DNA of 64,000 nucleotides from an uncultured Planctomycetaceae bacterium (GTDB lineage Bacteria; Planctomycetota; Phycisphaerae; Sedimentisphaerales; UBA12454), in the NCBI GenBank assembly GCA_964619675.1, contig CAZUEO010000005.1:15162-79161 (forward strand), given 5' to 3'. The stretch's first letter is position 1. Each line of letters starts with the position of its first letter. The position numbers and the translations under genes are program-made. Below, piece after piece: positions 10,812-55,067 of the stretch. Under the pieces are notes generated by a model that was given only the letters and a program-made list of their open reading frames with translations, did no database searches and was not told the origin of the DNA.

Positions 10812-10832
10812 TTGAGATTTCAAATTTGAAAT
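10812..10832. repeat. Heptanucleotide tandem array (ttgagat ttcaaat ttgaaat), YTSARAT family
   Basis: Three contiguous 7-nt units lie between the ppdK stop and tRNA-His. The unit family is the same as the arrays around the 4HB gene at 31.9-32.6 kb. Confidence 0.7.
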
Positions 10833-10840
10833 TGGTTAAT

Positions 10841-10915
10841 GGTGGGAGTAGCTCAGTTGGTTAGAGCATCAGATTGTGGATCTGAGGGTCGCGGGTTCGA
10901 TTCCCGTCTCTCACC
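10841..10915 (+). tRNA. tRNA-His (anticodon GTG), with an encoded G-1 and no encoded CCA
   Basis: A manual cloverleaf fold gives acceptor GTGGGAG/CTCTCAC, D arm GCTC..GAGC and anticodon stem TCAGA/TCTGA with loop TTGTGGA. The T arm is GCGGG-TTCGATT-CCCGT, and an extra 5' G pairs with discriminator C. Confidence 0.92.
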
Positions 10916-10920
10916 CGTAG

Positions 10921-10954
10921 AAAGGCGGCGGTTTAAACTGCCGCCTTGTTTATT
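10921..10954. terminator. Bidirectional intrinsic terminator between tRNA-His/ppdK (+) and dnaE (-)
   Basis: The AAGGCGGCGG-tttaaa-CTGCCGCCTT hairpin is flanked by an A-run upstream and TTGTTTATT downstream. Confidence 0.65.
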
Positions 10955-13900
10955 ATCTTGAAAGCTGAAGATTCTGTGCGCCGACGAGATTTTCCATCTG
11001 CCTGCAGAAATCGGTTGAAGGATTAACCGCCAGATTTTTACCCACAGCGGTTTTTATTGTAAGGCCCTTATTCGTTTTTACCGTAACATAAACAGGACTT
11101 CTGCCTCGATGAACTGAGCAGATGCTTTTTATGTGTGCGATTTTTTCTTTTGTTATCTCGGACTCGGCCAGAAGGATATTTATATTTTTTCCCGCCAGCC
11201 TCTGGCTGATACGGTCAAGCTCAATTAACTCATCGCAGATTATCTGCGGCATCTCGCGCGTAAAATCCAACCTGCCTTTTACGAACAAAACCTTATCAAC
11301 TTTGAGGATGTTTGTAAATCGTGCGTAGCAGTCCGACCACATTACAACCTCGCAGCTTCCCTGCAAATCCTCGAGGGTAAAAACGGCCATTTTTGAGCCG
11401 GCATTTCTGCCGTTCTTGGTAACGATGTTGCGGATTTTCTGAACCATTCCGCCGATTACAATTGTTTGACTTTCTCTGTCTTCGGTAAGCTGTGAAGTAT
11501 TCGCTGTGCTGTAAACGCTGATTGTGTCGGCGTATTTGCTCAGCGGATTTTTCGTTACATAAAGGCCGAGCACCTCTTTTTCGTAAGCCAGCATTTGTGT
11601 CTCCGGCCAGGCGGGCACATCAGGCAGTTTCTGGTGGTCTTTTTCGTAATCCGGTTTTGCAGCGCCTGCCTCAAATAGCCCTAATTGGCCCGCAGCGCGG
11701 TCGGTTTGCAGAATAGAACCCGCCTTCATTGCCGTTTCAAGCGCCGCGGTCATTTGTGCCCTGCTTCCGCCGAGCCTGTCGAAAGCTCCTGCCTTTATCA
11801 GGCCTTCGATTACCTGTTTATTGACGAGCCGTAAATCGACGTTCTCGCAGAAATGGAAAAGACTTCTGAATTGTCCCAGTTTTTTTCTTGAGATAATAAT
11901 TTGCTCGACCGCTTTTTCTCCGACACCTTTTACCACTGCCAGCCCGAAGCGTATCATCCCGCTGTCGGTTCTGTGCTGCTGCTGATAGATTACCGTAAAA
12001 TCGGTGAAGCTTTCATTTATGTCCGGCGGGGCAACGTCGATGCCCATCTGCCTGCATTCATTGATATAATCAGCCACCTTGTCGACATCGCCTTTTTCAT
12101 AGGTCAAAAGCGAAGCCATAAACTCTATCGGCCAGTAAACCTTCAGATAAGCGGTCTGAAAGGCGATGATTGAGTAACGTGTCGCGTGGCTTTTATTGAA
12201 GCCATAGCCTGCGAAGCGGTGTATAAGCTCAAAAATTTCATTTGCCTTTTCCCCGCTCAGACCTTTGCCGCCGCAGCCCTCGATGAATTTATGCTTTTGT
12301 TTTGAAATCACAGAGCCCTGTTTCTTGCTGATTGCCTTGATAAGCGTATAAGCCTGCCGCAGCGGTATATCGCCCAGCAGATTGCAGATTCGCATTACCT
12401 GTTCCTGATAGACCATAATGCCGAAGGTTTCCGCAAGCACATCTTCCATAATTTTGTGCGGCACGGACCATTTTGCCCCGTGTTTGCGGTCTATAAAGTC
12501 GCCGATTAGAGCCATCGGCCCCGGCCGGTAAAGCGCATTTGCCGCGATAAGCTCTTCAATACGGTCGGGACGCAATCGCATAAGCAAATCCTGCATACCG
12601 CCCGATTCGAACTGGAATATCCCTTTTGTTCTGCCGGCTGCGAAGACCTCAAAGACCTTCGGGTCGGTAAGGTCGATTTTTTCAATGTCGATTTTTTCGC
12701 CGTGAATCGATTCTACAAGTTCGATGGTTCGCTGAATAACGCTTAATGTCCGCAGGCCTAAAAAGTCCATTTTTAAAAGGCCGATTTTGTCTATCACAGG
12801 CCCTTCAAACTGCGTAATGATGTCTTCCGATTTCGGGTCGCGGTACAGCGGCACAAAATTCGTCAAAGGCTCATCGGCGATGACAACGCCGCAGGCGTGA
12901 ACTGAAGCGTGTCTCGTAAGACCTTCAAGCCTTTTACCTATCTCGATAACTTTTCTTGTTGTTGGGTTTGAATCATAGGCTTTTTTGAAGTCTGGTTCCT
13001 GCTTTAAAGCGTCTTCAAGTGTTATGCCGAGACTTGCCGGTACCATTTTTGCCAGCCTGTCGGCCTCGGCCAGCGGCACATCCAGCACCCTGCATACATC
13101 GCGGATTACAGCGCGGGCCTTCATTGTTCCGAAGGTGATTATCTGTGCGATGTGGCCGTATTTTCTGCGGACGTATTCAAGCGTTTTTGCCCTGCCGTCC
13201 TGGCAAATATCGATATCGATGTCAGGCATTTCATTTCGCTGCGGGTCCATAAAGCGCTCAAAGAGCAGGTCATAGCGAATCGGGTCAACGTTGCACAATC
13301 CCAGACAGTATCCGACTACCGTGCCGACTCCGCTGCCGCGTGCGCCGGTCGGGATGTTGTTCTCCGCCGCGTATCTGCAGAAGTCCCAGACAATCAAAAA
13401 ATAACTCGAAAAGCCTTTGCTCTCGATAACTTCAAGTTCGCGGTCAAGCCGCTGTTTTATTTCATCGGTGATTTTGCCATATCGCTTTTTCGCGCCTTCA
13501 TAGCATAGTTTCGTAAGAAATTCTTCAGGCGTTGAGCCGTCCTGCGGCCTGAATGTAGGCGAATGACGGTTTTTTGTGTCGATTTCAACGTTGCATCTGG
13601 CCGCGACAATCAAAGTATTATCGCAGGCCTCCGGAACGTCAGAGAACATTTCCCGCATTTGTTGGGGCGATTTAAAAAATACATCGGGTGGGTAAGTCAT
13701 TCTGTTTGTTTCTGTTACTCGTTTGCCGGTGCTTATGCAGGTAAGTGCATCGTGTGCCTCCCAGTCGTCGGCGTCTAAAAAATGTACATCGTTTGTCGCA
13801 AGTAACGGCAGCGACATCTTTTGCGCCAAATCCTTCACAGCCTCTCTAACGTGCGGTGCATCGCTCGGCTCGTGCTGCTGAATCTCGAGGAAAAATCTCT

Positions 13901-14414
13901 CGCTGCCGAATATTTTCAGATAATCTTCAACTGCTTTCCTGGCGGATTCAATATCCTGTTTTGCAAGGGCGGCGTTGACCTCGCCTTTCATACAAGCCGT
14001 TGAGCAGATAAGGCCTTCATTAAGTTGTGCCAGAATTTCTTTGTCGATTCGAGGCCGGTAATAAAAGCCTTCCGTATAACCGATACTTGCGAGCTTGAGC
14101 AGGTTGCGATAGCCGGTATTGTTTTCTGCCAGCAGAATAAGATGATATGCGGCGTTAGCGATTGAGGATTTTTGCCTATTGAAGCGCGAGTCCGGTGCAA
14201 CGTAAGCCTCGATTCCGATGATTGGTTTGATGTTTGCTGCCAGCGCTGCGGTGTAGAAATCGACGACGCCAAACATATTCCCGTGGTCGGTTATAGCTGC
14301 ACAGTCCATCCCCATTTCGCTGCATCGGCCAAAAAGCCTTTTCGGCACAATCGCCCCATCCAGCAGCGAAAACTGCGTATGCAGGTGCAAATGCGTAAAT
14401 CCCTTCTCCGCCAT
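10953..14414 (-). CDS. dnaE: DNA polymerase III alpha subunit
   Basis: The 1153-aa protein has an N-terminal PHP domain (FTHLHLHTQFSLLDGA), polymerase core motifs and an OB fold near the C-terminus. Confidence 0.95.
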   Translation of the reverse strand: MAEKGFTHLHLHTQFSLLDGAIVPKRLFGRCSEMGMDCAAITDHGNMFGVVDFYTAALAANIKPIIGIEAYVAPDSRFNRQKSSIANAAYHLILLAENNTGYRNLLKLASIGYTEGFYYRPRIDKEILAQLNEGLICSTACMKGEVNAALAKQDIESARKAVEDYLKIFGSERFFLEIQQHEPSDAPHVREAVKDLAQKMSLPLLATNDVHFLDADDWEAHDALTCISTGKRVTETNRMTYPPDVFFKSPQQMREMFSDVPEACDNTLIVAARCNVEIDTKNRHSPTFRPQDGSTPEEFLTKLCYEGAKKRYGKITDEIKQRLDRELEVIESKGFSSYFLIVWDFCRYAAENNIPTGARGSGVGTVVGYCLGLCNVDPIRYDLLFERFMDPQRNEMPDIDIDICQDGRAKTLEYVRRKYGHIAQIITFGTMKARAVIRDVCRVLDVPLAEADRLAKMVPASLGITLEDALKQEPDFKKAYDSNPTTRKVIEIGKRLEGLTRHASVHACGVVIADEPLTNFVPLYRDPKSEDIITQFEGPVIDKIGLLKMDFLGLRTLSVIQRTIELVESIHGEKIDIEKIDLTDPKVFEVFAAGRTKGIFQFESGGMQDLLMRLRPDRIEELIAANALYRPGPMALIGDFIDRKHGAKWSVPHKIMEDVLAETFGIMVYQEQVMRICNLLGDIPLRQAYTLIKAISKKQGSVISKQKHKFIEGCGGKGLSGEKANEIFELIHRFAGYGFNKSHATRYSIIAFQTAYLKVYWPIEFMASLLTYEKGDVDKVADYINECRQMGIDVAPPDINESFTDFTVIYQQQHRTDSGMIRFGLAVVKGVGEKAVEQIIISRKKLGQFRSLFHFCENVDLRLVNKQVIEGLIKAGAFDRLGGSRAQMTAALETAMKAGSILQTDRAAGQLGLFEAGAAKPDYEKDHQKLPDVPAWPETQMLAYEKEVLGLYVTKNPLSKYADTISVYSTANTSQLTEDRESQTIVIGGMVQKIRNIVTKNGRNAGSKMAVFTLEDLQGSCEVVMWSDCYARFTNILKVDKVLFVKGRLDFTREMPQIICDELIELDRISQRLAGKNINILLAESEITKEKIAHIKSICSVHRGRSPVYVTVKTNKGLTIKTAVGKNLAVNPSTDFCRQMENLVGAQNLQLSR

Positions 14415-23344: not shown

Positions 23345-23351
23345 ACTATTA

Positions 23352-27287: not shown

Positions 27288-28139
27288 TTATTTTTTACCG
27301 TCGTCCCTTATATCTTCGAATGAAACCTGCAGTCCCTGCAGGTCTGTTACGCTTATTTCTCCTTTGATAAACTGCCGAACAGCGGGCAGTGTGCTGTTTT
27401 TGATTGTTTCTGCGTTGCCGTCAACGATTACTTTGCCGTTATGCAGCATTATAATCCGGTCTGCTATCTTATATGCGCTGTTCATATCGTGTGTAACCAC
27501 TATGGTTGTAACGCCGAGCTCTTTTCTCAGTTTCAAAATCAGTTCGTTAATAATATCCGCTCTTACAGGGTCAAGTCCCGTTGTCGGCTCATCGTAGAGG
27601 ATAACTTCCGGATTCAGTGCGATTGCCCTTGCAAGTGCGACCCTTTTTTTCTGTCCGCCGGAGAGCCTTGCCGGATAATAATTTTGAAAGCCGTCCATTC
27701 CCATCATTGCAAGCTTGGTCCTGACAATCTCGTCGAGCTTTTTATGGTCTTTGATATGCTGCTGCTGCTCGACCGGGAAGATGATATTTTCATAAACGGT
27801 CATACTGTCGAACAGTGCCCCGCTTTGGAACAGAAAGCCCATCTGCGTGCGGATATCGCCGAGTTTGCTCTCAGGCAGGTTATCGATTCGCTGACCGTGA
27901 AAATAGACTTCCCCTGAGCCAGGCCGCAGTAGTACTATTATATGTTTTATGAGTACGGTTTTTCCGCATCCGCTTGGCCCGATTATAGCGGTAGTCTTGC
28001 CCTTTTCGAAGGCAAGCGAGATATCGTTAAGCACGACATTTTTTCCGAACCTTTTGACAAGGTTTTTAAGAACGATTATTCTATCGCCTGACCGCCTTTG
28101 GCGGACCTCGCTTTGAGCGGGTTTTATTTCCTTTTCCAT
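27288..28139 (-). CDS. mlaF: ABC transporter ATP-binding protein, MlaF/Ttg2A-like
   Basis: Walker A GPSGCGKT, signature LSGGQKKRVALARA and Walker B ILYDEPTTGLD are present. Its partner permease is at 34970-35806. Confidence 0.8.
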   Translation of the reverse strand: MEKEIKPAQSEVRQRRSGDRIIVLKNLVKRFGKNVVLNDISLAFEKGKTTAIIGPSGCGKTVLIKHIIVLLRPGSGEVYFHGQRIDNLPESKLGDIRTQMGFLFQSGALFDSMTVYENIIFPVEQQQHIKDHKKLDEIVRTKLAMMGMDGFQNYYPARLSGGQKKRVALARAIALNPEVILYDEPTTGLDPVRADIINELILKLRKELGVTTIVVTHDMNSAYKIADRIIMLHNGKVIVDGNAETIKNSTLPAVRQFIKGEISVTDLQGLQVSFEDIRDDGKK

Positions 28140-28151
28140 TTCAACCTTATT

Positions 28152-28982
28152 TTATTTATTGCCTTTAAAAAGTTTTTTGTTTTCAGGCCGCTGCAGATAG
28201 TTTTGTCTCGAAATTACTCTTTTACTGGACTTTGATTCAAGGTCTTTGCGTGCCTTTCCTGCAACATCGCCTCCTTCGACAGCGGCTTGCTTATTTTCGT
28301 CAAATCTCTGTGCATCGCGATTTCTGGTTATTTCTGTTGTGGCCGCCTCACCAAGCATAGAAAAAATTAGCTCGAGGTCTGTCATATGATCTCGCAGATT
28401 TTCGCGGTCAAGTCCTTTAAGTTTCTTATATTCGCCTGGCGTTAAACCAAAAGCCGCTTTCGATATTTCCGCGGTTAATATCCCATATTCTGTTTGTTCC
28501 TTAACGCCCCGGGTCTTCCATTCGTCGGTAAGTTCTTCCCGAACAGCTATCCCCCGCATACGTTTTTCTATCCAGTTATCGGAGTATCCCTTGGCCTTGT
28601 AAAGTGCGCGGGTTCTTTTTGTCGCCAGTTCCGGGTCTTCAATTTCCCGGATGCGTTCATAACCGACCCTTGCCAGCCAGCGTTTAAAAGGCTCTGCTTT
28701 GGGGCTTGGTATTGACTGAATTATGCGGAAAATACCTTCCGTATCGGCACAATTTACCTTCTGTGGGCCGCCGTCGGTATCTATCAAAAGGGTATGTACA
28801 AATTGTACCCATCCTTTGGATAGCTGTGGGTCTCGTTTCCGCATTTTATTGATGTATTGTTTTGGGTCATTGGAATCAGTCAGCGCAAAAACGACATCTT
28901 CGACAACGAACCACCATTCGTCTTTATGAATAGTTTTTCTTATTTCCTTGCCTTTGAATACTGCTATTTTTGTCGTTTCCAT
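28152..28982 (-). CDS. Bro-N domain protein (DinD-like, 276 aa)
   Basis: The N-terminal Bro-N-like region is FKGKEIRKTIHKDEWWFVVEDVVFAL. The C-terminal region has a DinD-like length and pattern (LRDHMTDLELIFSMLGEAATTEI). Confidence 0.65.
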   Translation of the reverse strand: METTKIAVFKGKEIRKTIHKDEWWFVVEDVVFALTDSNDPKQYINKMRKRDPQLSKGWVQFVHTLLIDTDGGPQKVNCADTEGIFRIIQSIPSPKAEPFKRWLARVGYERIREIEDPELATKRTRALYKAKGYSDNWIEKRMRGIAVREELTDEWKTRGVKEQTEYGILTAEISKAAFGLTPGEYKKLKGLDRENLRDHMTDLELIFSMLGEAATTEITRNRDAQRFDENKQAAVEGGDVAGKARKDLESKSSKRVISRQNYLQRPENKKLFKGNK

Positions 28983-29128
28983 TTTGACCTTATTTTATAA
29001 TTTATTCCCCTCGTCCGCAACAGTTCTTTTCGTGGTTAGCCCTGCCAACACTTTGGCGGGGTTTGTCATTTTTTTACGTATTTTGGATGCAGTTGCTGCC
29101 TTCGGTTCGGTAATCAATTGTTCCCCTG

Positions 29129-29163
29129 CCCCGTGAGATGCCGCTTCGGCTATCTCATCGGGG
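29129..29163. repeat. Bulged hairpin element, copy L (CCCCGTGAGAT-gccgcttcggct-ATCTCA-t-CGGGG)
   Basis: It forms an 11-bp stem with one bulged T plus a 3-bp inner stem. A second copy with compensatory changes lies at 34645-34679. Confidence 0.8.
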
Positions 29164-29220
29164 TCATCGCAGCCCTCGGCAGCAACTATAATTCTTGCGA
29201 CAGTTTACCCCGACAGTTTA

Positions 29221-29238
29221 TCCCTGCAAAAGCAGGGA
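29221..29238. repeat. Perfect 7-bp hairpin TCCCTGC-aaaa-GCAGGGA, preceded by a 13-nt tandem duplication (cgacagtttaYcc x2, 29198-29223)
   Basis: I read it directly from the sequence. It resembles the in-frame hairpin at 23712-23731. Confidence 0.7.
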
Positions 29239-29280
29239 AAGGTAGGGGCCATTTGCTTTGCTCCTATTTATTTATCTTTG

Positions 29281-31908
29281 CTAATTCAATATCACATCAT
29301 TAAGAGTTTTTACGGGGGCTTTAAAACTGACATCCTTAAATTGCTCGAAATGCTTTTTGCCGCACTTGATTTTTTGTTGTTCTTCTTGTCGCAATTCCTC
29401 TATGCGATTTGTCCCTTTGGTTTCTGCAACAAAATAAACTTTCTTATCTCCTTCATAAACCAGTGCCCAATCAGGATTATATGTACCGAGCGGAGTTTCT
29501 ATCTTAAACCAGAAAGGCAGTTTGAGATAAAACTTGATATCATCTCTTTTTTCACAGTCTTTTGCAAATTCCTTTTCCGTATAGCTTTCTATTTGAACAT
29601 AATCATAAACGGTTTTTTCTTTTTTCATAACTTCGAATAAATCGTCAAGGTATCCGTAAAGTTCTTCACTGTCAAAAAGCCTCTGTTCCCAGTATGAATC
29701 TGCTATCTTTTCATATTTAATCCCATCAACCATCATTTCATTTAGAACCTCGTTTATCTCGACACAAACTTTATCCATAAACTGCTGAGGGTTGATAAAT
29801 ACATCATCAATTTTGCCCGATTCAAGTAAAATGCGGCAAATGGTATCACGGGTTAATCTGGTCTTGTTCTGAATGTATGAAAGAATATCCGGGACGGTTT
29901 CTATATCGCCATATAAATCCCTACTGGATTGTGTTCTGAGTTCTGCCGTAACAGCGGTTTTATCAATTTCAATATCGGCTTTGGTCCTTATCAGTTTTGG
30001 CTTTGTGATTTTAATATCACCTATTTTTTTGCCTGCCCTCTTTATCAATTCATTGGTATCATAATCAACGCTGTAATGGGTCTTCTGCTTAATTTTATCC
30101 CATAAGAGTTTAAAATTCTCATCAAGCTGTAAATTCTTTTGCAGCTTTATTTGTTTTTTCTTCTTTTTGTTCTTAATCCTGCCGCCGAAACTAACGCCGC
30201 ATTCTTCTTCAATCTCAGACTGTAGGGCTTTTGCAAAATCTTCATAATATTCATTCGCTATAACGGTAAGAATATTTATGTTTTCATCAAATACTCTTTT
30301 ACCATCCTGATTTACAGGCAGTCTCATACCTCTGCCGATCTCCTGTCTTTTCTTTAGTGTTGATTGTGTTTCATTCAGTGTGCATATTTGAAATACGTTT
30401 GGATTATCCCAGCCTTCGCGTAAGGCCGAATGTGAAAATATAAATCTCAAAGGTTCGTTCACATCAAGAAGCCGTTCTTTGTCTTTCATTATCAGTTGAT
30501 ACGCACTATCATCGTCTATGGTATCCCTCCCTTCGCGAGAATCCTTCCAGTTTCCTTTTTTATCCTGCGCGAAATAACCATTGTGAGCCTGCCGGGCCTT
30601 ATAATTCAGCAACCCTTTATATTTGTTTTGGTTTCTTGCCTTTTCGTAAAATTCTTCAAACCATAAAGCTATTTTGCCTTTAACAGGATTTTCATTTTCA
30701 TAATTGCGGTAATTAGCCACTCTGTCGATAAAGAACAGTGTTAAAACTTTTATCCCCTTATCTTTTAATCGTTTTTCCTTTTCAAAATGATTATTTATTG
30801 TGCTTTCAATTTGATACCTCATTATCTCATCGGTCAGCCCGCCTTGTTTTTGCCCGACATTAATAGTTATACCGTTATTAAATGTTATGCCCTCCCTGTC
30901 TATTTCACTTACAATAAATCCCTCTTTATACAGGTCCCTTTTGTTTGACTTTTCATAAAGGTCGTCGCCAACCGAAACATTCACATCTTTTTTCACGACC
31001 CCCTCGTTTGTATTAACATCTATTTTCAGCTTTGCGATTATTTTTCTAGTTTGCGGTTTTATGCTTTTTACTTCAATATACGCCAGGTTGAAATTATCTG
31101 CCTCTGTTATCCCATCAACCTCAATTCTTTTGACAAGCCCCAAATCATAAGCCCTTACGGGGTCAAGCCGGTAAATTTCATTGTATCTTACCGTATGTGT
31201 TGCGGAATATCGAAGCGTGCATAATGGATTAAGATTTGCTATCGCCTGCCTCCTGATATCCGTCTCCATATTTTGAGGCTCATCTACGATAACTATCGGT
31301 CTTGTCGCCTTGATAAACTCTGCCGGCACTCCCCAGTCGCTTTGCTGAAAAAATATGTTTCCTGCCCTTGTGAACTGGTCTATATTCATTACCATTATCT
31401 GCAAAGTGTTGGTCGTTGCAAAATTTCTGGCAAGCCCTCTTTTTTTAGGGTCAAATTCGTGGTAATCCAGTGTCGGCTTTTCATAGAGCATATCAAAATG
31501 CTCTTTTGTTATTTCAAGGTTCTTTAATACGCCTTCTTTAATCGCCAGGCTCGGCACAACAATAATAAACTTCTTAAAACCGTAATTTTTATGTAATTCG
31601 TGTATCGTCCGCAGATAAACATAAGTTTTGCCCGTGCCGGTTTCCATCTCTATTGAAAAATGAAAACCATCGAGTTTATTTGAGACTTCTATTTCATTTC
31701 TCTGCTGAATAATTTGAAGATTTTTTAATATTGTTTCATTGTCAAGGATTAAATTATTCGCAACAACGCTCAAAAATGTTCCGCCAACTGATGTAGCCTT
31801 TGCATAGGCAAAATCGCTCGCCCCCGCAGGTTGACCCGCAAATATTTCAACCGTTGCATTTATAGCATCTTTCTGAAATTCCTGATTTGCGTCAAATTGA
31901 AGTTTCAT
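29281..31908 (-). CDS. res: Type III restriction endonuclease, Res subunit
   Basis: The MKLQFDANQEFQKDAI N-terminus, helicase motif I METGTGKT, motif II IVIVDEPQNM and a C-terminal PD-(D/E)xK region (NPDWALV..FVAETKG) are present. The ATG at 31908 is preferred over 31938. Confidence 0.88.
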   Translation of the reverse strand: MKLQFDANQEFQKDAINATVEIFAGQPAGASDFAYAKATSVGGTFLSVVANNLILDNETILKNLQIIQQRNEIEVSNKLDGFHFSIEMETGTGKTYVYLRTIHELHKNYGFKKFIIVVPSLAIKEGVLKNLEITKEHFDMLYEKPTLDYHEFDPKKRGLARNFATTNTLQIMVMNIDQFTRAGNIFFQQSDWGVPAEFIKATRPIVIVDEPQNMETDIRRQAIANLNPLCTLRYSATHTVRYNEIYRLDPVRAYDLGLVKRIEVDGITEADNFNLAYIEVKSIKPQTRKIIAKLKIDVNTNEGVVKKDVNVSVGDDLYEKSNKRDLYKEGFIVSEIDREGITFNNGITINVGQKQGGLTDEIMRYQIESTINNHFEKEKRLKDKGIKVLTLFFIDRVANYRNYENENPVKGKIALWFEEFYEKARNQNKYKGLLNYKARQAHNGYFAQDKKGNWKDSREGRDTIDDDSAYQLIMKDKERLLDVNEPLRFIFSHSALREGWDNPNVFQICTLNETQSTLKKRQEIGRGMRLPVNQDGKRVFDENINILTVIANEYYEDFAKALQSEIEEECGVSFGGRIKNKKKKKQIKLQKNLQLDENFKLLWDKIKQKTHYSVDYDTNELIKRAGKKIGDIKITKPKLIRTKADIEIDKTAVTAELRTQSSRDLYGDIETVPDILSYIQNKTRLTRDTICRILLESGKIDDVFINPQQFMDKVCVEINEVLNEMMVDGIKYEKIADSYWEQRLFDSEELYGYLDDLFEVMKKEKTVYDYVQIESYTEKEFAKDCEKRDDIKFYLKLPFWFKIETPLGTYNPDWALVYEGDKKVYFVAETKGTNRIEELRQEEQQKIKCGKKHFEQFKDVSFKAPVKTLNDVILN

Positions 31909-31913
31909 TTTGC

Positions 31914-31944
31914 ACCAATTTGAAATTTGAAATCTCAAATCTGA
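31914..31944. repeat. Direct repeat, left copy (core 27-mer atttgaaatttgaaatctcaaatctga at 31918-31944)
   Basis: It is identical over 27 nt, and 30/31 over the extended match, to 32468-32498. It is itself built of 7-nt units (31921-31948), and AATCTCA-aatc-TGAGATT forms a hairpin at 31931-31948. Confidence 0.9.
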
Positions 31945-31946
31945 GA

Positions 31947-32450
31947 TTATTTATCTTCTGGATAATCCTGCGGCCTGGCCTTTCTCAAAGTTTCCTGAAT
32001 TTGTTTTTCAAACGCATCTGCACGTCTTTTCGCTTCATATATGCCGCGTGTATTTTCATTTAAATGCCGTTGTCCTTTTATATCGCTGTTTTGCAGGCTG
32101 TCCGCCCATCCGCGTATCTGCCGTGAGCACGATTCCGCTTTTGATTTGAGATCTGAAATCTGAGATTTCAGATGTGCCGCTTCTGGAAACAGTTCTGTAA
32201 AAAGCAGCATTGAGCGTGTTTCTCCGCACGAGCCGCGGGAGATATATAAGAAGGCGAGCAGTTCCGCCGTTGAGCCGCGCTCAAATCCTTCTGCTATATT
32301 ATTCGAAACTGAAAGCGAAGAACGACGCATCTGGTCGCGAAGGTCCCCGGGCTGATTGAAGAACTTGTCTTTAGTCAGCTCATACACTCCTTTGGCCAGT
32401 TCTATCGCTAACTGCCACACCGGTAAATCTTCAAACCGCTCATATTTCAT
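31947..32450 (-). CDS. Four-helix-bundle protein (23S rRNA-intervening-sequence protein family), copy 1, with an extended C-terminus
   Basis: FEDLPVWQLAIELAKGVYELT..LRDQMRRSSLSVSNNIAEGFERGS..FLYISRGSCGETRS matches the family signature. It is inserted between mod and res. Confidence 0.85.
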   Translation of the reverse strand: MKYERFEDLPVWQLAIELAKGVYELTKDKFFNQPGDLRDQMRRSSLSVSNNIAEGFERGSTAELLAFLYISRGSCGETRSMLLFTELFPEAAHLKSQISDLKSKAESCSRQIRGWADSLQNSDIKGQRHLNENTRGIYEAKRRADAFEKQIQETLRKARPQDYPEDK

Positions 32451-32467
32451 CTTTTTTATCCTTCAAA

Positions 32468-32574
32468 ACCTATTTGAAATTTGAAATCTCAAATCTGATA
32501 TCCGTTTATGAAATCTGAAACTTCAAATCTGCTATTTTTTAGTTTTCTGAAATTTGAGATTTTAAATCTGAGAT
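32468..32574. repeat. Direct repeat, right copy (32468-32498), plus two more 4-unit heptamer arrays (32509-32536 and 32547-32574)
   Basis: The arrays read tgaaatt tgaaatc tcaaatc tgatatc / tgaaatc tgaaact tcaaatc tgctatt / ctgaaat ttgagat tttaaat ctgagat. Together they fill the mod-4HB intergenic gap. Confidence 0.9.
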
Positions 32575-32577
32575 TCG

Positions 32578-34449
32578 TCATATTACTTTAAATTCTATTC
32601 TTTCGCCTTCCATCTGCAGAGCCGTATTCGTCTTTAACCGGTCGTTATTACTAAAAGCAATATCAAGGCAGGTAAACCTCTGGGGCTTTTCTTTTATAAT
32701 CTTTTCGACGAATTTTTTTGTTATTTTCTCTGCAAGGCAGATAATCTCCATACCGTCCGCAAGACTGAAATAATCAATTGAATCAAAATTTTTCTTTTCA
32801 ATCTTTACATTCAAATCAAATCGGCTGTTTTTAAGAATAATCTCAAAGAGCATATCTTCAACGGCCGCACCCTTTTTCGTATTATCAACGAACATCTTCA
32901 TCTGCTCTTTTAATTGGCCGGCCGTTTTTATATCTTCTCGCCACTGCTTGAAATTACTCTGCTCTAATTTAAAGACCTTAAATCCCAAATCCAATTTGTT
33001 TTTGTCAAATTTGAGATTCCCTTCTATCTCCTTTTTTATCTTTTCCGCCGCCCGCCGGAGCCTTTCCTTGCCTATTTCAGCTATTGTCTTAAAGCCCGCT
33101 TTATATGCCTCGCTGTCTTCTTCGCAAGGCTCTGCCAACTGAACGCAGATAAATTTCCTGTTCCCGCCATCTTCAGCATTCAAAGCCATTACTGCGTGTG
33201 CCGTTGTACAAGACCCGGCAAAAAAATCGAGAACGATATCATCTTCACCTAAGCCTTGTACTAACAGCTCTCTAATTAATTCTGTAGGCTTTGGGAACTC
33301 CATATATCTAGCTTTAAATAATTCTTCTAATTCATTGGTTCCATTTCTTGTATATATATCAGGTGCTATAATCGAAGAATAACCCGTGAACTCGTCATTA
33401 AGTTCAGAAAGAAATATTTTTCTGCGTGGTCTTCCTTTTTGTGACTGCGGCCAGATTATCCTATCTTCTTCAATCAATTTTTGCATGGTGTTTTTATCAT
33501 ATCGCCACCCCATTTTAGGTTTGCCATAATTAATACCAGTCTTGGGATTTATTAAGTCATAATGACAATTAGGCCTTTGTTCTTCCGGCAATAAACCTAC
33601 CATATTTCCGCTTACCCAGTCTCCTCTTGGATCATTGTCTGGATTTTTGTATTGTTCTTTATTTCTTTCTGAACCTCTTATCCTATTTCCTGAAGTTCTC
33701 GTATAAACAAGTACATATTCATGATCGATCGAAACGCCCGTGATATTTCGATTATCTTTATTTTGACGGCTTTTCCAAATAAGTTGCGCAACAAAACTTT
33801 CCTCTCCAAAAATTTCATTCATAATCATTCGCAGGTTATAGACTTCGTTGTCATCGATTGAAACAAAAATAACGCCGTCATCACGGAGCAGATTTCTTGC
33901 CAGAAAAAGTCTCGGATATATCATTGAAAGCCAGTTTGAATGAAAATGGCCTGCATCTTTACTGTTCTTTCGCCAGAAACCGTCTTTTGTAAGTAGTCCT
34001 TCGGCGTCTTTTATCCCTGCCCGCAGTTCGTAATCTTCTTTCTCCTCTTTGAATCTGTCGGGATAAATAAAACTGTCGTTGCCGGTATTATATGGCGGGT
34101 CGATATAAATCATCTTTATTTTGCCGTAATAGGTTTTTTGCAGGACTTTAAGGACCTCTAAATTATCCCCTTCAATAAAAATATTTTCTGAGCTCTGAGA
34201 TTTCAAATCTGAGATTTTCAGTGTTGCTGTCGTGGTTTCTTGTATATGGCGAAAGCACTCGCTTTTTCCCGCCCAGCTTAGGCCGTATCGTTCATTATTT
34301 GTATCGAGTTCTTCGCCGAGTGTTTGTTTTAGTTTGTCTGGGCTGATTTTGCCTTCGGCAAAAATCTCTGGGAAGCGGGATTTGAGCAGTTCCGCAAGTT
34401 CTTTTTGTGGGCTTGCCGAATTGCCGTCTATTTTATGTATCTTTGCCAT
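32578..34449 (-). CDS. mod: Type III DNA methyltransferase, Mod subunit (beta-class N6-adenine)
   Basis: IYIDPPYNTGND (motif IV) lies upstream of VLDFFAGSCTT (motif I). The 623-aa gene is adjacent to res. Confidence 0.88.
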   Translation of the reverse strand: MAKIHKIDGNSASPQKELAELLKSRFPEIFAEGKISPDKLKQTLGEELDTNNERYGLSWAGKSECFRHIQETTTATLKISDLKSQSSENIFIEGDNLEVLKVLQKTYYGKIKMIYIDPPYNTGNDSFIYPDRFKEEKEDYELRAGIKDAEGLLTKDGFWRKNSKDAGHFHSNWLSMIYPRLFLARNLLRDDGVIFVSIDDNEVYNLRMIMNEIFGEESFVAQLIWKSRQNKDNRNITGVSIDHEYVLVYTRTSGNRIRGSERNKEQYKNPDNDPRGDWVSGNMVGLLPEEQRPNCHYDLINPKTGINYGKPKMGWRYDKNTMQKLIEEDRIIWPQSQKGRPRRKIFLSELNDEFTGYSSIIAPDIYTRNGTNELEELFKARYMEFPKPTELIRELLVQGLGEDDIVLDFFAGSCTTAHAVMALNAEDGGNRKFICVQLAEPCEEDSEAYKAGFKTIAEIGKERLRRAAEKIKKEIEGNLKFDKNKLDLGFKVFKLEQSNFKQWREDIKTAGQLKEQMKMFVDNTKKGAAVEDMLFEIILKNSRFDLNVKIEKKNFDSIDYFSLADGMEIICLAEKITKKFVEKIIKEKPQRFTCLDIAFSNNDRLKTNTALQMEGERIEFKVI

Positions 34450-34644
34450 TCGCTTATTTCTCCTTTGCTTCTAATTCGGCTCGATTTTCCCCTATTTTCT
34501 GCCATTCTTTTTTTCCCCAGATTTTTAAATCCGTGCCCGATTCCTTAATTCTGTCTACTGAATTCTCCGTAAGGAGTCCATAGGACTGTATTCTGAATTC
34601 TCTTTTCCGCCATTCCTTTATTTCTCCTATGTTTACCCCGCCTG

Positions 34645-34679
34645 CCCTGTGAGATGTCTCTTAGACTATCTCATCAGGG
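34645..34679. repeat. Bulged hairpin element, copy R (CCCTGTGAGAT-gtctcttagact-ATCTCA-t-CAGGG)
   Basis: Its architecture matches 29129-29163. C:G becomes T:A in both the outer stem and the inner stem. Confidence 0.8.
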
Positions 34680-34711
34680 TGAGATATCCGCCCGCAGGCG
34701 GCTCCTTTCAC

Positions 34712-34739
34712 CAAATACCATATACTAAATGCCAAATAC
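34712..34739. repeat. Heptanucleotide array caaatac catatac taaatgc caaatac
   Basis: Four contiguous 7-nt units, read directly from the sequence. Confidence 0.8.
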
Positions 34740-34790
34740 TCTGGACTTCTTTGTACTCTTCGTGCCCTCTGTGGTGAGAGTTTAGTGTAC

Positions 34791-34869
34791 ATTTTTAATT
34801 TTTATTTGTCGTTTTTATTTTTTATTTTTTATATTTGATATTTTTTACTGGCGACCAGCGACCAGCGAC
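34791..34869. repeat. Heptanucleotide arrays: an ATTTTTW-type run of 8 units (34791-34846), then gcgacca x2.7 (34851-34869)
   Basis: The 7-nt register is maintained across attttta attttta tttgtcg tttttat tttttat tttttat atttgat atttttt, followed by gcgacca gcgacca gcgac. Confidence 0.8.
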
Positions 34870-34940
34870 TAATTATCGACTCGGCTATTCGACTTTCAAC
34901 TCTTGCCCGCCGCAGGCGGGCCGGCGGTTCCATTATTCTG

Positions 34941-34968
34941 TAATCTATAATCTACAATCTGTAATCTG
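34941..34968. repeat. Heptanucleotide array taatcta taatcta caatctg taatctg, abutting the mlaE stop
   Basis: Four contiguous 7-nt units end 1 nt before the mlaE stop codon (34970-34972). Confidence 0.85.
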
Positions 34969-34969
34969 C

Positions 34970-45963: not shown

Positions 45964-45981
45964 AAATCACCCTTTTATATC

Positions 45982-46030
45982 AAAAATAAAAACTAAAAAA
46001 TAAAAACTACATATAAAAATTAAAAATTAT
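45982..46030. repeat. Heptanucleotide array (aaaaata aaaacta)x2, then catataa aaattaa aaattat
   Basis: Seven contiguous 7-nt units run into the stop codon of 4HB copy 2 (46027-46029). Confidence 0.8.
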
Positions 46031-46398
46031 TTCTTGCCCTTTAGTGTTAGAAGGCTTGAGCCGAAGATATTGGAAATTTCACCCAGCTCTTTTAAAAACC
46101 ACTCTGACTTGTCCGGTTTTATGCGTTTACTGTCTCTCAGGAGCGCCAGCCAAACCTTGCTTTCATTGGCAGATTTCAGAGAAATGTGAAAATAATTGGT
46201 AAAGTCTTTTTTACTGCTCGCGGTTTGTCCTTCAATGTAATTTGCCAAAATACTCGTTCCACTTTTTAATAACTGGTCACCAAGACGTTTTGATACGTTA
46301 TCATCGGGGAGTTGGTCGAGCAGTTCAATAAGGCGCAGCGCAAAATTGTAAAGGCGTTTTTTAAAGTCATTTTCAAATTTTTCTTTGTCGTTTTTCAT
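46027..46398 (-). CDS. Four-helix-bundle protein (23S rRNA-IVS protein family), copy 2
   Basis: RLYNFALRLIELLDQLP..LGDQLLKSGTSILANYIEGQ..FTNYFHISLKSANESKVWLALL matches the family pattern. The protein is 123 aa. Confidence 0.8.
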   Translation of the reverse strand: MKNDKEKFENDFKKRLYNFALRLIELLDQLPDDNVSKRLGDQLLKSGTSILANYIEGQTASSKKDFTNYFHISLKSANESKVWLALLRDSKRIKPDKSEWFLKELGEISNIFGSSLLTLKGKK

Positions 46399-46423
46399 TT
46401 TTATATTTTATTTTTTATATTCC
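46396..46423. repeat. Heptanucleotide array cattttt atatttt atttttt atattcc
   Basis: The array contains the 4HB-2 start codon (46396-46398), the gltX stop (46401-46403) and the last gltX codons (..GNIKNKI*). Confidence 0.8.
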
Positions 46424-52235: not shown

Positions 52236-52269
52236 ATAAAAAAGGAGCTGCCTCCTCCTGGCCAGCTCC
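52236..52269 (-). terminator. Intrinsic terminator (minus strand)
   Basis: On the minus strand, GGAGCTG-gccaggaggagg-CAGCTCC is followed by TTTTTTAT. Confidence 0.65.
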
Positions 52270-54669: not shown

Positions 54670-54674
54670 AATGA

Positions 54675-54977
54675 TTAGATATCTGTATCCTGTTCTCCGC
54701 TAGGGGATGCCTCACGGCAGATTCGGATTTTGACATTGCTTCTGACGTCGCCACCTTTTTTGTCGGTTTTTACGGTGTTTATAAAGATTCTGGCGGCATT
54801 AAAGCAGCATATGAATCCGACTATAATAAATATTGCGGCGGCGATAACGGCAAGGACCTCCTTGAGAATCCAGACGAGTGTGCCGAAGCCGATAAGCAAA
54901 AGGCCTACAATAAACAGGACTTTTGCATAGCCTTTCGAAAGCTGTTTGAACGAATCTGAGTAGAGTTTAAAGAACAT
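54675..54977 (-). CDS. Small membrane protein (2 TM), function unknown
   Basis: The ORF has two hydrophobic helices and is tightly spaced with the downstream gene. No recognisable motif was seen. Confidence 0.4.
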   Translation of the reverse strand: MFFKLYSDSFKQLSKGYAKVLFIVGLLLIGFGTLVWILKEVLAVIAAAIFIIVGFICCFNAARIFINTVKTDKKGGDVRSNVKIRICREASPSGEQDTDI

Positions 54978-54980
54978 AAA

Positions 54981-55021
54981 AAACGATTATCCCGCACCTA
55001 AAGTTTTTTTAGGTGCGGGAT
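54981..55021 (-). terminator. Intrinsic terminator downstream of groEL
   Basis: A perfect 11-bp stem ATCCCGCACCT / AGGTGCGGGAT (54989-54999 and 55011-55021) is followed by a T-run on the minus strand (aatcgtttttt). Confidence 0.7.
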
Positions 55022-55025
55022 TCCT

Positions 55026-55067
55026 TAATTTTTCATTTTAAATTTTGATTTTTTAATTTTTTTAATA
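55026..55067. repeat. Heptanucleotide array taatttt tcatttt aaatttt gattttt taatttt tttaata
   Basis: Six contiguous NNATTTT-type units overlap the groEL stop codon and its last codons. Confidence 0.8.

What the first reader, a model, noticed from the sequence alone, without database searches (positions are those of the whole stretch)
10812..55067. Many short tandem arrays with strict 7-nt periodicity (STRR-like), in several unit families
I read at least 13 arrays directly, most of them exactly 4 units (28 nt) long. YTSARAT family: 10812-10832, 31921-31948, 32142-32176, 32475-32502, 32509-32536, 32547-32574 and 34188-34222. CAAATAC family: 34712-34739. ATTTTTW/AAAAATA family: 34791-34846, 45982-46030, 46396-46423 and 55026-55067. 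GCGACCA: 34851-34869. TAATCTR: 34941-34968. They are not randomly placed. They hug both four-helix-bundle genes, a cassette-remnant zone, and the exact 3' ends of ppdK, mlaE, gltX and groEL. Heptanucleotide tandem repeats (STRR) are an established feature of heterocystous cyanobacteria. This backbone (Rnf, PPDK, dockerin/RCC1) is not cyanobacterial. The association with 23S-IVS-family 4HB genes is, to my knowledge, not formally described. The arrays could be recombination or insertion substrates, protein-binding sites or replication-slippage products.
Basis: partly seen in the sequence, partly recalled or inferred. Interest (0 to 1): 0.8.

Follow-up and report, generated by a model that had tools for sequence, protein, structure and literature searches.

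The report
Heptamer arrays bracket four-helix-bundle gene cassettes
Short runs of 7-base repeats in this planctomycete genome are real, and one repeat family forms the conserved ends (plus an in-gene copy) of a small four-helix-bundle gene wedged between other genes, which ties two long-unexplained bacterial oddities together.

Summary
The period-7 arrays are real: 7 strict arrays in the window against 0.02 expected, and none at periods 5, 6 or 8-12. The AT-rich "family" shows only a weak period-7 signal.

The TYTSARA arrays are not generic repeats. They are the ends of a PF05635 four-helix-bundle (4HB) gene cassette sitting exactly between the type III mod and res genes.
- **Enrichment.** In 80 homologous loci from several phyla, heptamer arrays reach 2.9/kb within 200 bp of the gene and 0.095/kb elsewhere.
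- **Empty sites.** Orthologous mod-res junctions without the gene overlap as ATGA and carry no arrays.
- **In-gene copy.** A fifth array inside the gene encodes HLKSxISxLKS and is under synonymous-codon constraint.
- **Independent case.** In Lysobacterales, the accB-4HB-accC cassette (PDB 2GSC family) carries 4 x GGGAATN and 4 x NATTCCC arms with compensatory changes.

The only published precedent found is in Coxiella, where heptamers precede the 4HB ORF of the 23S intervening sequence.

Inferred mechanism: cis-acting structured boundary and expression modules of 4HB cassettes, reshaped by slippage. The in-gene copy suggests a sequence-specific reader, possibly the 4HB protein.

This is a new variant of known kinds. 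Interest is about 0.65.

The parts
31947..32450 (-). 4HB-1 gene: 167-aa PF05635/TIGR02436 four-helix-bundle protein. It is the cargo of the cassette inserted between mod and res.
   Evidence: Pfam E=4e-25. TIGR02436 at 84 bits. There are 7974 homologues; the best 120 are 75-95% identical and 164-181 aa long.
32451..32577 (-). 5' arm of the cassette, running from the mod stop to the 4HB-1 ATG. It holds three TYTSARA arrays (32547-32574, 32509-32536, 32475-32502) followed by an AAGGA Shine-Dalgarno-like site.
   Evidence: Sequence read directly. As RNA it folds to -24.6 kcal/mol, z=-3.1 against shuffles. It is absent from empty orthologous junctions.
32142..32176 (-). In-gene TYTSARA array encoding HLKSQISDLKS at the start of helix 4.
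   Evidence: The peptide is conserved. Across 75 genes the four most codon-constrained columns of the whole gene lie here: AAA 61/61, CAT 92%, TCT 88%, TCA 87%. In the 26-gene subset, GC3 is 0.26 here against 0.60 in the rest of the gene.
31909..31948 (-). 3' arm of the cassette, running from the 4HB-1 stop to the res ATG. The array at 31917-31948 is a near-exact direct repeat of 32472-32502.
   Evidence: The same-locus direct alignment score is 28.
32578..34449 (-). Type III restriction-modification mod gene (host operon, upstream of the cassette).
   Evidence: PF01555. Orthologues were found in 79 metagenome loci.
29281..31908 (-). Type III res gene (host operon, downstream of the cassette). 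The true start is the ATG at 31908.
   Evidence: PF04851 and PF19778. The MKLQFDANQ start is shared with orthologues.
34188..34222 (-). Solo TYTSARA patch in frame inside mod. It encodes TLKISDLKSQSS and replaces the ancestral linker PxRxESVDFDKT.
   Evidence: Present only in the window and its closest relative L083. All other orthologues keep the ancestral linker.
10812..10832 (.). Solo 3-unit TYTSARA array between the ppdK stop and a tRNA gene.
46027..46398 (-). 4HB-2 gene: 123-aa PF05635 protein. It is the cargo of a second cassette, between gltX and a pfkB-family kinase.
   Evidence: In other Sedimentisphaerales, relatives sit either in the same gltX-pfkB site or between leuC and leuD.
46396..46423 (-). 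5' arm of the 4HB-2 cassette. These are A-rich heptamers on the gene strand. They encode the last gltX codons and end in the 4HB-2 ATG. The period-7 signal is weak.
45982..46030 (-). 3' arm of the 4HB-2 cassette. These are T-rich heptamers on the gene strand, complementary in composition to the 5' arm.
   Evidence: Shift-7 identity is 0.74. The same layout is seen in L176 and L166/L183.
34941..34968 (.). TAATCTR x4 array directly after the mlaE stop.
34712..34869 (.). Three further arrays in the 520-bp mlaE-mod spacer: CAAATAC x4, an AT-rich run at 34791-34846, and GCGACCA x2.7.
   Evidence: No gene remnant or Rfam match was found there.
7323..7349 (+). It fills the spacer between a stop (7315) and the next start, and supplies the ATG (7347) of the CDP-alcohol phosphatidyltransferase gene.
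55026..55067 (.). AT-rich run after the groEL stop. Its period-7 signal is marginal.

Best explanation
What it is (well supported). The YTSARAT/TYTSARA arrays are integral cis-parts of a small gene cassette with no associated recombinase gene. Its layout is: arrays, Shine-Dalgarno site, a 167-aa PF05635 four-helix-bundle gene carrying one more array in its coding sequence, then arrays again. The cassette sits exactly between the stop of one gene and the start of the next. Here that is between the type III mod and res genes, whose stop and start overlap as ATGA when the site is empty. The same design recurs with other 4HB subfamilies and other repeat units: 4HB-2 in this window, the accB-4HB-accC cassette of Lysobacterales, and the Coxiella 23S intervening sequence.

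How it works (inferred). The arrays act on the operon transcript as structured, repeat-built boundary modules.
- They fold into hairpins or into a stem that encloses the ORF.
- They mark the inserted ORF off from the host message. In Coxiella RNase III cuts at the first repeat.
- They carry or directly precede the start sites of the 4HB gene and of the downstream host gene, so the insertion is expressed without being polar.
- Their length and unit make-up drift by 7-nt slippage. The drift is strongest in hosts that are generally prone to heptamer arrays.

The in-gene copy is held at the nucleotide level even where flanking arrays are absent. This points to a sequence-specific reader that travels with the cassette, most simply the 4HB protein binding its own message or gene.
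For: Shown:
- Heptamer arrays reach 2.90/kb within 200 bp of 4HB-1 homologues against 0.095/kb farther away. Periods 5, 6 and 8-10 are near zero. The far intergenic background is 0.383/kb.
- 78 of 90 near arrays are TYTSARA, against 12 of 104 far arrays.
- Empty orthologous mod-res junctions (L083, L084, L091, L098, L102, L149) have an ATGA overlap and no arrays. Seven filled junctions have 4HB-1 plus arrays.
- The last 5' unit abuts a conserved AGGAGAGAAAAG-ATG. The 3' arrays start at the stop codon.
- The in-gene array is under synonymous constraint. It expanded in frame by 21 nt in Pirellulales-type homologues.
- Arrays are more structured than shuffles: mean z about -1.6, and -3.1 for the window 5' arm.
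- In Lysobacterales, across six genera, 4 x GGGAATN follow the accB stop and 4 x NATTCCC end in the accC ATG. 95.8% of cells pair, 5 pairs carry compensatory changes, and 0 of 500 shuffles reach the covariation score.
- 4HB-2 relatives sit between gltX and pfkB or between leuC and leuD, with A-rich 5' arms and T-rich 3' arms.
- The neighbours of 4HB-1 homologues belong to more than 100 families, and none of the 25 most frequent families on either side is a transposase or integrase.

From the literature: the Coxiella intervening sequence has a Shine-Dalgarno site, 3-4 GACAGAT heptamers, then the S23p ORF, with the RNase III site at the first repeat (PMC4990558).
Against: - No transcript or processing data exist for these organisms.
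- For the TYTSARA family, the 5' and 3' arms are direct repeats rather than inverted ones (median score 19 against 15 cross-locus, p=8e-4; inverted not raised).
- A locus's own 5' x 3' RNA duplex is weaker than cross-locus pairs (-33.3 against -38.1 kcal/mol). An enclosing stem of the intervening-sequence type is therefore not selected in this family.
- Over 74 loci the mean duplex z is only -0.57.
- The mix of G and C at the central unit position in the in-gene array shows no selection for a hairpin.
- Flanking arrays follow host lineage: 39/49 Planctomycetota, 4/8 Verrucomicrobiota, 2/9 Desulfobacterota. They are therefore dispensable for the gene.
- Other 4HB insertions at the same junction have no arrays (L086, L117, L103, L137).
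Confidence: 0.45

Rival explanations
1. The arrays are binding sites for the 4HB protein itself. Homologues crystallise with five chains per entry, and arrays are typically 4-5 units long. On this view the cassette is a regulator flanked by its own operators, and in some genomes (Xanthomonas GGGAATC) the same protein would read arrays genome-wide.
For: - The unit sequence travels with the gene across phyla.
- Different 4HB subfamilies have different units within one genome: TYTSARA against A-rich in this window, and AGTGGAT next to a second 4HB in L046.
- The in-gene array is constrained at synonymous sites irrespective of hairpin potential, even where flanks lack arrays.
- PDB entries 2GSC and 2RLD each hold 5 chains.
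- The related DGR protein Avd works in a complex with RNA (my own knowledge).
Against: - There is no binding data.
- Units differ within the 4HB-2 subfamily at 75-92% protein identity: AAAAATA against AGCAAAA/ATCAAAA.
- Most other heptamer arrays in these loci are not near any 4HB gene.
- Some 4HB cassettes have no arrays.
Confidence: 0.25
2. The arrays are DNA-level recombination or insertion substrates. Direct repeats at both ends would let the cassette be excised and re-inserted, and arrays would be hot spots for other small insertions.
For: - Same-locus arms are direct repeats more alike than cross-locus arms. In the window 27 nt are identical.
- L005 has 74-nt direct repeats, and L148 has duplicated mod 3' ends at the junction.
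- An array patch replaced a linker inside mod.
- A hairpin mini-element of about 35 nt is nested in arrays in L005, L007 and L009, and in frame in the in-gene array of L022.
- 4HB-1 homologues lie in more than 100 different contexts.
Against: - Empty junctions carry no array to recombine with.
- TYTSARA arrays are almost absent away from the gene: 5 arrays beyond 500 bp in 1.09 Mb.
- Each of the 80 loci kept comes from a different genome assembly.
- None of the 25 most frequent neighbour families on either side is a recombinase.
- The Lysobacterales cassette has stayed in one site across six genera.
Confidence: 0.15
3. The arrays are neutral products of a host-specific 7-nt replication-slippage bias in intergenic DNA, with no function tied to the 4HB genes.
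For: - Heptamer arrays of many unit families are a general intergenic feature of these genomes: 0.383/kb against 0.007 for period 6 and 0.046 for period 8.
- Array lengths vary from 28 to 175 nt, with near-perfect runs in L024, L044 and L054.
- Flanking arrays track the host's background array density.
- A slippage explanation for heptamer excess has been proposed before (PMC4692102).
Against: - The same unit family stays with the gene across phyla and is enriched well over 50-fold next to it.
- The in-gene copy is under synonymous constraint.
- In Lysobacterales there are exactly 4+4 units with register-specific compensatory changes across six genera.
Confidence: 0.1

Closest known systems
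23S rRNA intervening sequences that carry an S23p/PF05635 ORF (Leptospira, Coxiella burnetii)
   Same: The cargo is the same protein family. In Coxiella, 3-4 tandem heptamers (GACAGAT) lie between the Shine-Dalgarno site and the ORF, their copy number varies between strains, and RNase III cuts at the first repeat (PMC4990558). In both cases a small ORF is inserted into a host transcript and bounded by repeat-built sequence. The Lysobacterales cassette has complementary ends like the stem of an intervening sequence.
   Different: Here the host transcript is an mRNA operon (mod-res, gltX-pfkB; elsewhere accB-accC, leuC-leuD, hsdM-hsdS), not rRNA. No rRNA lies in the window. The TYTSARA arms are direct quasi-palindromic repeats rather than inverted ends. 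There are arrays on both sides and one inside the gene.
STRR sequences of heterocystous cyanobacteria and heptameric simple repeats of Xanthomonas (GGGAATC), Nostoc (GGGGAYT) and Beggiatoaceae/Bacteroidetes (TAACTGA)
   Same: All are imperfect tandem heptamers, mostly about four units, lying between genes, often just upstream of start codons or as inverted pairs, with several unit families (PMC4692102, PMC4679880). The Xanthomonas GGGAATC family is the very unit that brackets the XCC0516-type 4HB gene.
   Different: The passages of those papers read or term-searched here make no link to 4HB genes; only PMC4679880 was searched for the 4HB, S23 and intervening-sequence terms. The host here is a planctomycete. 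TYTSARA arrays are not dispersed genome-wide but confined to the cassette. The unit is its own degenerate reverse complement.
Avd accessory proteins of diversity-generating retroelements
   Same: The fold family is the same (PF05635-like; PMC10053308). An Avd-type protein working on RNA from its own locus is a precedent for a protein that reads its own gene region (my own knowledge).
   Different: NF033474 scores 21 bits for 4HB-2 against a cut-off of 80, and does not match 4HB-1. The flanking genes are mod/res and gltX/pfkB, with no reverse transcriptase or template/variable repeats next to them.
Phase-variable repeats in type III mod genes (phasevarions)
   Same: There is a short tandem repeat in the 5' part of a type III mod ORF (34188-34222).
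   Different: The repeat is imperfect (shift-7 identity 0.57), in frame, and the same length in the closest relative. It replaces a linker rather than varying in copy number.

Membership tests
PF05635 / TIGR02436 four-helix-bundle (23S rRNA intervening-sequence protein) family | Protein matches the family profile above its curated cut-off | tested here: met
   4HB-1: Pfam 88.5 bits (cut-off 33.8) and TIGR02436 84.2 bits (cut-off 24). 4HB-2: 71 and 83.8 bits.
23S rRNA intervening-sequence element | Inserted in a 23S rRNA helix | tested here: not met
   The Rfam gathering scan of the whole window finds only one tRNA. The flanking genes are protein-coding.
23S rRNA intervening-sequence element | Complementary 5' and 3' ends forming a stem that encloses the ORF | tested here: inconclusive
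   Met in the Lysobacterales cassette: 24 pairs, 95.8% paired, 5 compensatory. The window cassette can form a 20-bp 5'-3' duplex (z=-4.5). Across the family, however, a locus's own arms pair worse than cross-locus arms.
23S rRNA intervening-sequence element | Excision by RNase III | not testable with these tools
   Needs RNA end-mapping. It has been shown only for Coxiella (PMC4990558).
STRR (cyanobacterial short tandemly repeated repetitive sequences) | Tandem heptanucleotide units, mainly intergenic | tested here: met
STRR (cyanobacterial short tandemly repeated repetitive sequences) | Host is a heterocystous cyanobacterium, with the STRR1-3 unit sequences (units recalled from memory) | tested here: not met
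   Homologues and neighbours are Phycisphaerae/Sedimentisphaerales. The units are TYTSARA, TAATCTR, TTCTAYA and others.
STRR (cyanobacterial short tandemly repeated repetitive sequences) | One unit family dispersed at many sites in the genome | tested here: not met
   TYTSARA arrays are confined to the cassette: 78 near against 5 beyond 500 bp in 1.09 Mb. Whole-genome counts for this organism could not be made.
DGR accessory protein Avd | Matches the Avd equivalog and lies beside a reverse transcriptase and template/variable repeats | tested here: not met
   NF033474 scores 21.4 bits against a cut-off of 80 for 4HB-2 and does not match 4HB-1. The neighbours are mod/res and gltX/pfkB. The rest of the window was not scanned for a reverse transcriptase.
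Phasevarion repeat in a type III mod gene | Perfect tandem repeat whose copy number shifts the mod reading frame | tested here: not met
   The repeat is imperfect and in frame, and has the same length in L083.
MITE / REP-type dispersed repeat | Many dispersed copies with terminal inverted repeats and target-site duplication | tested here: not met
   Each of the 80 loci kept comes from a different assembly. TYTSARA is rare away from the gene. The ATGA at both ends of the insert is equally explained by the need to keep the mod stop and the res start.

The most novel reading that the evidence does not exclude
PF05635 four-helix-bundle proteins and heptamer tandem arrays form a two-part system. 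On this reading the 4HB oligomer is the sequence-specific reader of runs of 4-5 heptamers, on RNA or DNA. Each 4HB subfamily would have its own unit, and the cassette arms and in-gene copy would be its autoregulatory sites. In lineages rich in both (Xanthomonas, Nostoc, Bacteroidetes, Planctomycetota) the hundreds of 'orphan' heptamer arrays would be its genome-wide targets. That would give a function both to STRR-type repeats (unexplained since 1990) and to the intervening-sequence/4HB protein family (unexplained since 1993).
Probability: 0.2. Interest if true: 0.85.

Novelty: new variant of a known kind. Interest (0 to 1): 0.65.

Why it matters
Heptamer tandem repeats (STRR and its relatives) and the four-helix-bundle proteins first seen in rRNA intervening sequences are two widespread bacterial features with no agreed function. 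Neither has had a tractable handle.

This work shows that they form one conserved module in several phyla. The module is inserted with base-pair precision between operon genes, often in restriction-modification and CRISPR operons. One repeat copy is held under nucleotide-level selection inside the gene.

Both puzzles therefore become a single testable question. The test can be run in a model organism, because Xanthomonas campestris has a solved structure for this protein (XCC0516, PDB 2GSC) and 186 catalogued GGGAATC arrays.

Tried and rejected
- **Upstream G-centred against downstream C-centred units as clean terminal inverted repeats of the TYTSARA cassette.** Rejected. Upstream counts are 109 G against 102 C; downstream 86 against 155.
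- **Enclosing 5'-3' stem as a general feature of 4HB-1 loci.** Not supported.
- **Far arrays as flanks of other 4HB paralogues.** Rejected. A profile search found only 86 4HB ORFs, almost all of them the queried gene.
- **Far arrays as inverted pairs.** Only 2 of 58 by my criterion.
- **Known RNA families.** None in the window apart from a tRNA, and none in 34400-35000 even at E<=1.
- **Sigma-70 promoter or terminator consensus in 31800-35100.** Promoter-like sites are at the shuffle expectation (7 found, 6.9 expected). Terminator-like sites are 6 against 2.8 ± 1.5 expected, and none lies in an array.
- **PADLOC defence models.** No match to either 4HB protein.
- **Phage carriage.** No 4HB-1 relative in 2.9 million viral contigs.
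- **Literature.** No paper linking heptamer repeats with four-helix-bundle or TIGR02436 genes, apart from the Coxiella description. The Elhai 2008 paper on small dispersed repeats could not be retrieved.
- **Source contig.** Look-ups by exact protein gave only 1-2 kb Logan contigs.
- **Hammerhead-like CTGATGAG at about 34670.** Read by eye only; there is no GAAA core and no Rfam hit.

Full report

I scored self-identity at a shift of p over 3p positions, requiring at least 80% matches. The window then has 7 period-7 arrays against 0.02 expected in 100 locally dinucleotide-shuffled copies. Periods 5, 6 and 8-12 give none, and period 4 is at expectation.

Tandem Repeats Finder recovers nine of the listed arrays.

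Shift-7 identity by array is as follows:
- YTSARAT arrays: 0.57-0.81.
- TAATCTR: 0.86.
- GCGACCA: 1.0.
- CAAATAC: 0.71.

The AT-rich 'family' is weaker. Two arrays peak at shift 7 (0.78 and 0.74). The arrays at 46396-46423 and 55026-55067 hardly exceed other shifts, and TRF assigns them several rival periods.

**2. Gene map**

- 29281-31908(-) is a type III res gene and 32578-34449(-) is its mod gene.
- Between them lies 31947-32450(-), a 167-aa PF05635/TIGR02436 four-helix-bundle (4HB) gene.
- A second 4HB gene of 123 aa, 26% identical, lies at 46027-46398(-) between gltX and a pfkB-family kinase.
- Arrays abut both 4HB genes on both sides.
- Further arrays follow the ppdK stop (then a tRNA), the mlaE stop and the groEL stop.
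- The 'gltX 3' end' array overlaps the last gltX codons and ends in the 4HB-2 ATG.
- The array at 7323-7349 fills a stop-to-start spacer and supplies the next gene's ATG.
- The unit TYTSARA is its own degenerate reverse complement, so these arrays are strand-symmetric and fold on themselves.

**3. The arrays belong to the 4HB gene**

The 167-aa protein has thousands of relatives. The best 120 are 75-95% identical and 164-181 aa long, and the named ones come from Phycisphaerae, Sedimentisphaerales or Planctomycetota.

One scan of species-representative genomes returned 80 loci. These come from Planctomycetota, Verrucomicrobiota, Desulfobacterota, Acidobacteriota, Omnitrophota and others, at 58-96% identity. 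In these loci:
- Period-7 arrays occur at 2.90/kb within 200 bp of the gene and 0.095/kb farther away. Periods 5, 6 and 8-10 are essentially absent near the gene.
- Against far intergenic DNA alone (0.383/kb) the excess is still about 7.6-fold.
- For TYTSARA-type arrays the contrast is 78 of 90 near against 12 of 104 far. Only 5 lie beyond 500 bp in 1.09 Mb.
- The same unit family is seen in all these phyla.
- Each of the 80 loci kept comes from a different genome assembly.
- No relative was found in 2.9 million viral contigs.

**4. Empty and filled sites**

A metagenome scan with the res protein gave 79 orthologous type III loci.
- In six of them (L083, L084, L091, L098, L102, L149) mod and res overlap as ATGA, and there are no arrays.
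- In seven (L088, L097, L101, L109, L129, L140, L148) a 4HB-1 homologue with TYTSARA arrays on both sides lies between the mod stop and the res ATG.

The arrays are therefore part of the insert, not a pre-existing target.

The 5' arm ends in a conserved TTTCAGA-AGGAGAGAAAAG-ATG. The 3' arm starts at the stop codon and is followed by about 20 conserved bases before the res ATG.

The neighbours of the 80 genome loci belong to more than 100 Pfam families. Restriction-modification and CRISPR genes are prominent among them: ResIII 8, MmeI 2 and Cas7 2 upstream; N6_Mtase 4, Eco57I 4, N6_N4_Mtase 4, Cas4 4, Methylase_S 3 and Cas1 1 downstream. None of the 25 most frequent families on either side is a transposase or integrase.

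**5. The in-gene array**

The array at 32142-32176 encodes HLKSQISDLKS, which is conserved in the family. Across 75 genes, the four most codon-constrained columns of the whole gene all lie in this motif:
- Lys AAA in 61 of 61.
- His CAT in 92%.
- Ser TCT in 88%. TCT makes up 9% of Ser codons elsewhere in the 26 genes.
- Ser TCA in 87%.

GC3 is 0.26 in the motif against 0.60 in the rest of the gene. This includes hosts with GC3 above 0.7.

The variable residues (Q/E, D/N) are exactly those allowed by the degenerate unit positions. The mix of G- and C-centred units shows no selection for a hairpin. Pirellulales-type homologues carry one more heptad (SEISDLR-SEISDLK), which is three units or 21 nt in frame. 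The motif persists in Desulfobacterota (8 of 9 loci), where flanking arrays are mostly absent.

Something therefore reads this sequence as nucleic acid.

**6. Structure of the arms**

Arrays next to the gene are moderately more structured than shuffles (mean z about -1.6). The window's 127-nt 5' arm folds to -24.6 kcal/mol, z=-3.1.

In this family the two arms are direct repeats. Same-locus arms are more alike in direct orientation than cross-locus arms (median 19 against 15, p=8e-4), but not in inverted orientation. A locus's own 5' x 3' RNA duplex is weaker than cross-locus pairs (-33.3 against -38.1 kcal/mol). The window's cassette can form a 20-bp 5'-3' duplex (z=-4.5). Over 74 loci, however, the mean z is only -0.57. 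A stem enclosing the ORF is therefore not a selected feature of the TYTSARA family.

**7. Host dependence and general background**

| Lineage | Loci with flanking arrays | Far heptamer arrays per kb |
|---|---|---|
| Planctomycetota | 39/49 | 0.114 |
| Verrucomicrobiota | 4/8 | 0.040 |
| Desulfobacterota | 2/9 | 0.014 |

In far intergenic DNA of all loci, period 7 is 55 times as frequent as period 6 and 8 times as frequent as period 8. Many other unit families occur there, such as GTCCTCC, ATCCAGC, CAGTGGT, AACGTTC and TAACCAA, and they are not next to 4HB genes. Array length ranges from 28 to 175 nt, with near-perfect runs in some loci.

So a host-level tendency to make heptamer arrays exists. 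The cassette arms are its gene-specific, sequence-conserved instance.

**8. Independent cases**

(a) *Coxiella.* The 23S intervening sequence has a Shine-Dalgarno site, three tandem GACAGAT heptamers plus a degenerate fourth, then the S23p (4HB) ORF. Copy number varies between strains, and the RNase III 5' cut is at the first repeat (PMC4990558).

(b) *Lysobacterales.* The closest solved structure to 4HB-1 is XCC0516 of Xanthomonas campestris (2GSC, 5 chains).
- Its gene lies between accB and accC in Xanthomonas, Rhodanobacter, Lysobacter, Pseudoxanthomonas, Dyella and Dokdonella.
- In all of these, four GGGAATN units follow the accB stop and four NATTCCC units end in the accC ATG.
- Taken as a 24-pair interrupted stem (6 pairs plus one mismatch per unit), 95.8% of cells pair and 5 pairs show changes on both sides.
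- No shuffle of 500 reaches the covariation score, and sliding the partner by 1-3 columns collapses pairing.
- Caveat: the structure was derived from these sequences, and gene conversion between inverted arms would give the same pattern.
- GGGAATC is the heptamer that Rehm et al. catalogued at 186 sites in this species, mostly four units long and often as inverted pairs. The passages I read make no link to this gene (PMC4692102).

(c) *4HB-2 subfamily.* It sits between gltX and pfkB (92% identity) or between leuC and leuD (75-78% identity). It has A-rich 5' heptamers ending in the ATG and T-rich 3' heptamers.

(d) *Two distant 4HB inserts at the mod-res junction.* These have 9-nt repeats of opposite sense up- and downstream. 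Five others have no repeats at all.

**9. DNA-level events at arrays**

- The array inside mod (34188-34222) replaces the ancestral PxRxESVDFDKT linker. This is so only in the window and its closest relative, and the patch is in frame and 9 nt shorter.
- A hairpin mini-element of about 35 nt (CACACGCAGCGAAGCGCAGAGCCCGYTTCGGAAA) is nested in TYTSARA arrays of L005, L007 and L009. In L022 it lies in frame in the in-gene array (the 10-aa insert is visible).
- L148 carries duplicated mod 3' ends at the junction.

Arrays are therefore also sites of DNA rearrangement.

**10. Interpretation**

Firmly supported: the arrays are cis-parts of 4HB gene cassettes that occupy stop-to-start junctions of operons.

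Inferred: they work on the transcript as structured boundary and expression modules. They would delimit the inserted ORF and provide or precede the start sites of the 4HB gene and the next host gene. They are reshaped by 7-nt slippage.

The in-gene copy argues for a sequence-specific reader that travels with the gene. The 4HB protein is the obvious candidate. I rank that as the main rival and complement rather than the primary claim, because nothing here tests binding. Recombination-substrate and neutral-slippage readings explain some observations but not the gene-specific conservation.

**11. Comparison and novelty**

The literature searches found heptamer-repeat papers and 4HB/intervening-sequence papers. 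They found no work joining the two beyond the Coxiella description.

The cassette is not an rRNA intervening sequence (there is no rRNA here). It is not a cyanobacterial STRR, not a DGR Avd locus, not a phasevarion repeat, and not a MITE. It works most like an ORF-bearing intervening sequence transplanted into mRNA operons.

I class it as a new variant of known kinds.

Noticed in passing
L085-L159 (orthologues of window 29281-34449), at the mod-res junction: The junction between type III mod and res is a hot spot for inserted genes. Besides 4HB genes it holds, in different metagenome contigs, Bro-N (5), RhuM (3), SIR2 (3), ThsB-TIR (2), Shedu SduA (2), HerA, AAA_15/OLD-TOPRIM, DUF5131 and DUF3800. 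The gaps range from 350 to 3683 bp, against an ATGA overlap in empty sites.
   Followed up: partly
L005 9887-10720, L007 ~9900-9945, L009 ~9900-9935 and (-) 2210, L022 ~10290-10330: A hairpin mini-element of about 35 nt (66 nt in L005), CACACGCAGCGAAGCGCAGAGCCCGYTTCGGAAA, is nested inside TYTSARA arrays. In L022 it lies in frame inside the 4HB coding sequence and adds 10 residues. It looks like a very small mobile repeat that targets heptamer arrays.
   Followed up: partly
window 27288-28982: The two genes downstream of res look like further defence genes. 28152-28982 (Bro-N) matches the PADLOC candidate PDC-S13 at E=6e-113, and 27288-28139 is an ABC-type ATPase matching mad3. The region 27288-34449 is therefore a defence island.
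   Followed up: no
L162-L165, L186-L196: A 4HB gene (XCC0516 family, PDB 2GSC) has been kept between accB and accC across six genera of Lysobacterales. It splits a housekeeping operon of fatty-acid synthesis. In Xanthomonas the annotated start lies inside the 5' heptamer array.
   Followed up: yes
L166-L175, L183-L185: Relatives of the window's second 4HB gene (75-78% identical) lie between leuC and leuD in other Sedimentisphaerales. Again this splits the two subunit genes of one enzyme.
   Followed up: partly
L148 ~3318-3400; L032 ~1900-2060: There are scars at cassette junctions. In L148 the last ~20 bases of mod (gagtttaaggtgatatgaRaaag) are repeated two to three times before the arrays. 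In L032 the upstream flank reads as an hsdS N-terminal fragment fused to an hsdM C-terminal end.
   Followed up: no
window 42713-43053: A 177-bp tandem repeat (1.9 copies, 75% matches) lies inside ORF 42291-43262(-). It is probably an internal protein repeat.
   Followed up: no
window 34640-34935: Two GC-rich hairpins (GCCGCCTGCGGGCGG at ~34690 and GCCCGCCGCAGGCGGGC at ~34905) sit among the arrays in the mlaE-mod spacer. A sigma-70-like site (TTGAAA-16-GATAAT, 10 of 12) lies at 34899-34872(-), upstream of mod.
   Followed up: no
   Followed up: no
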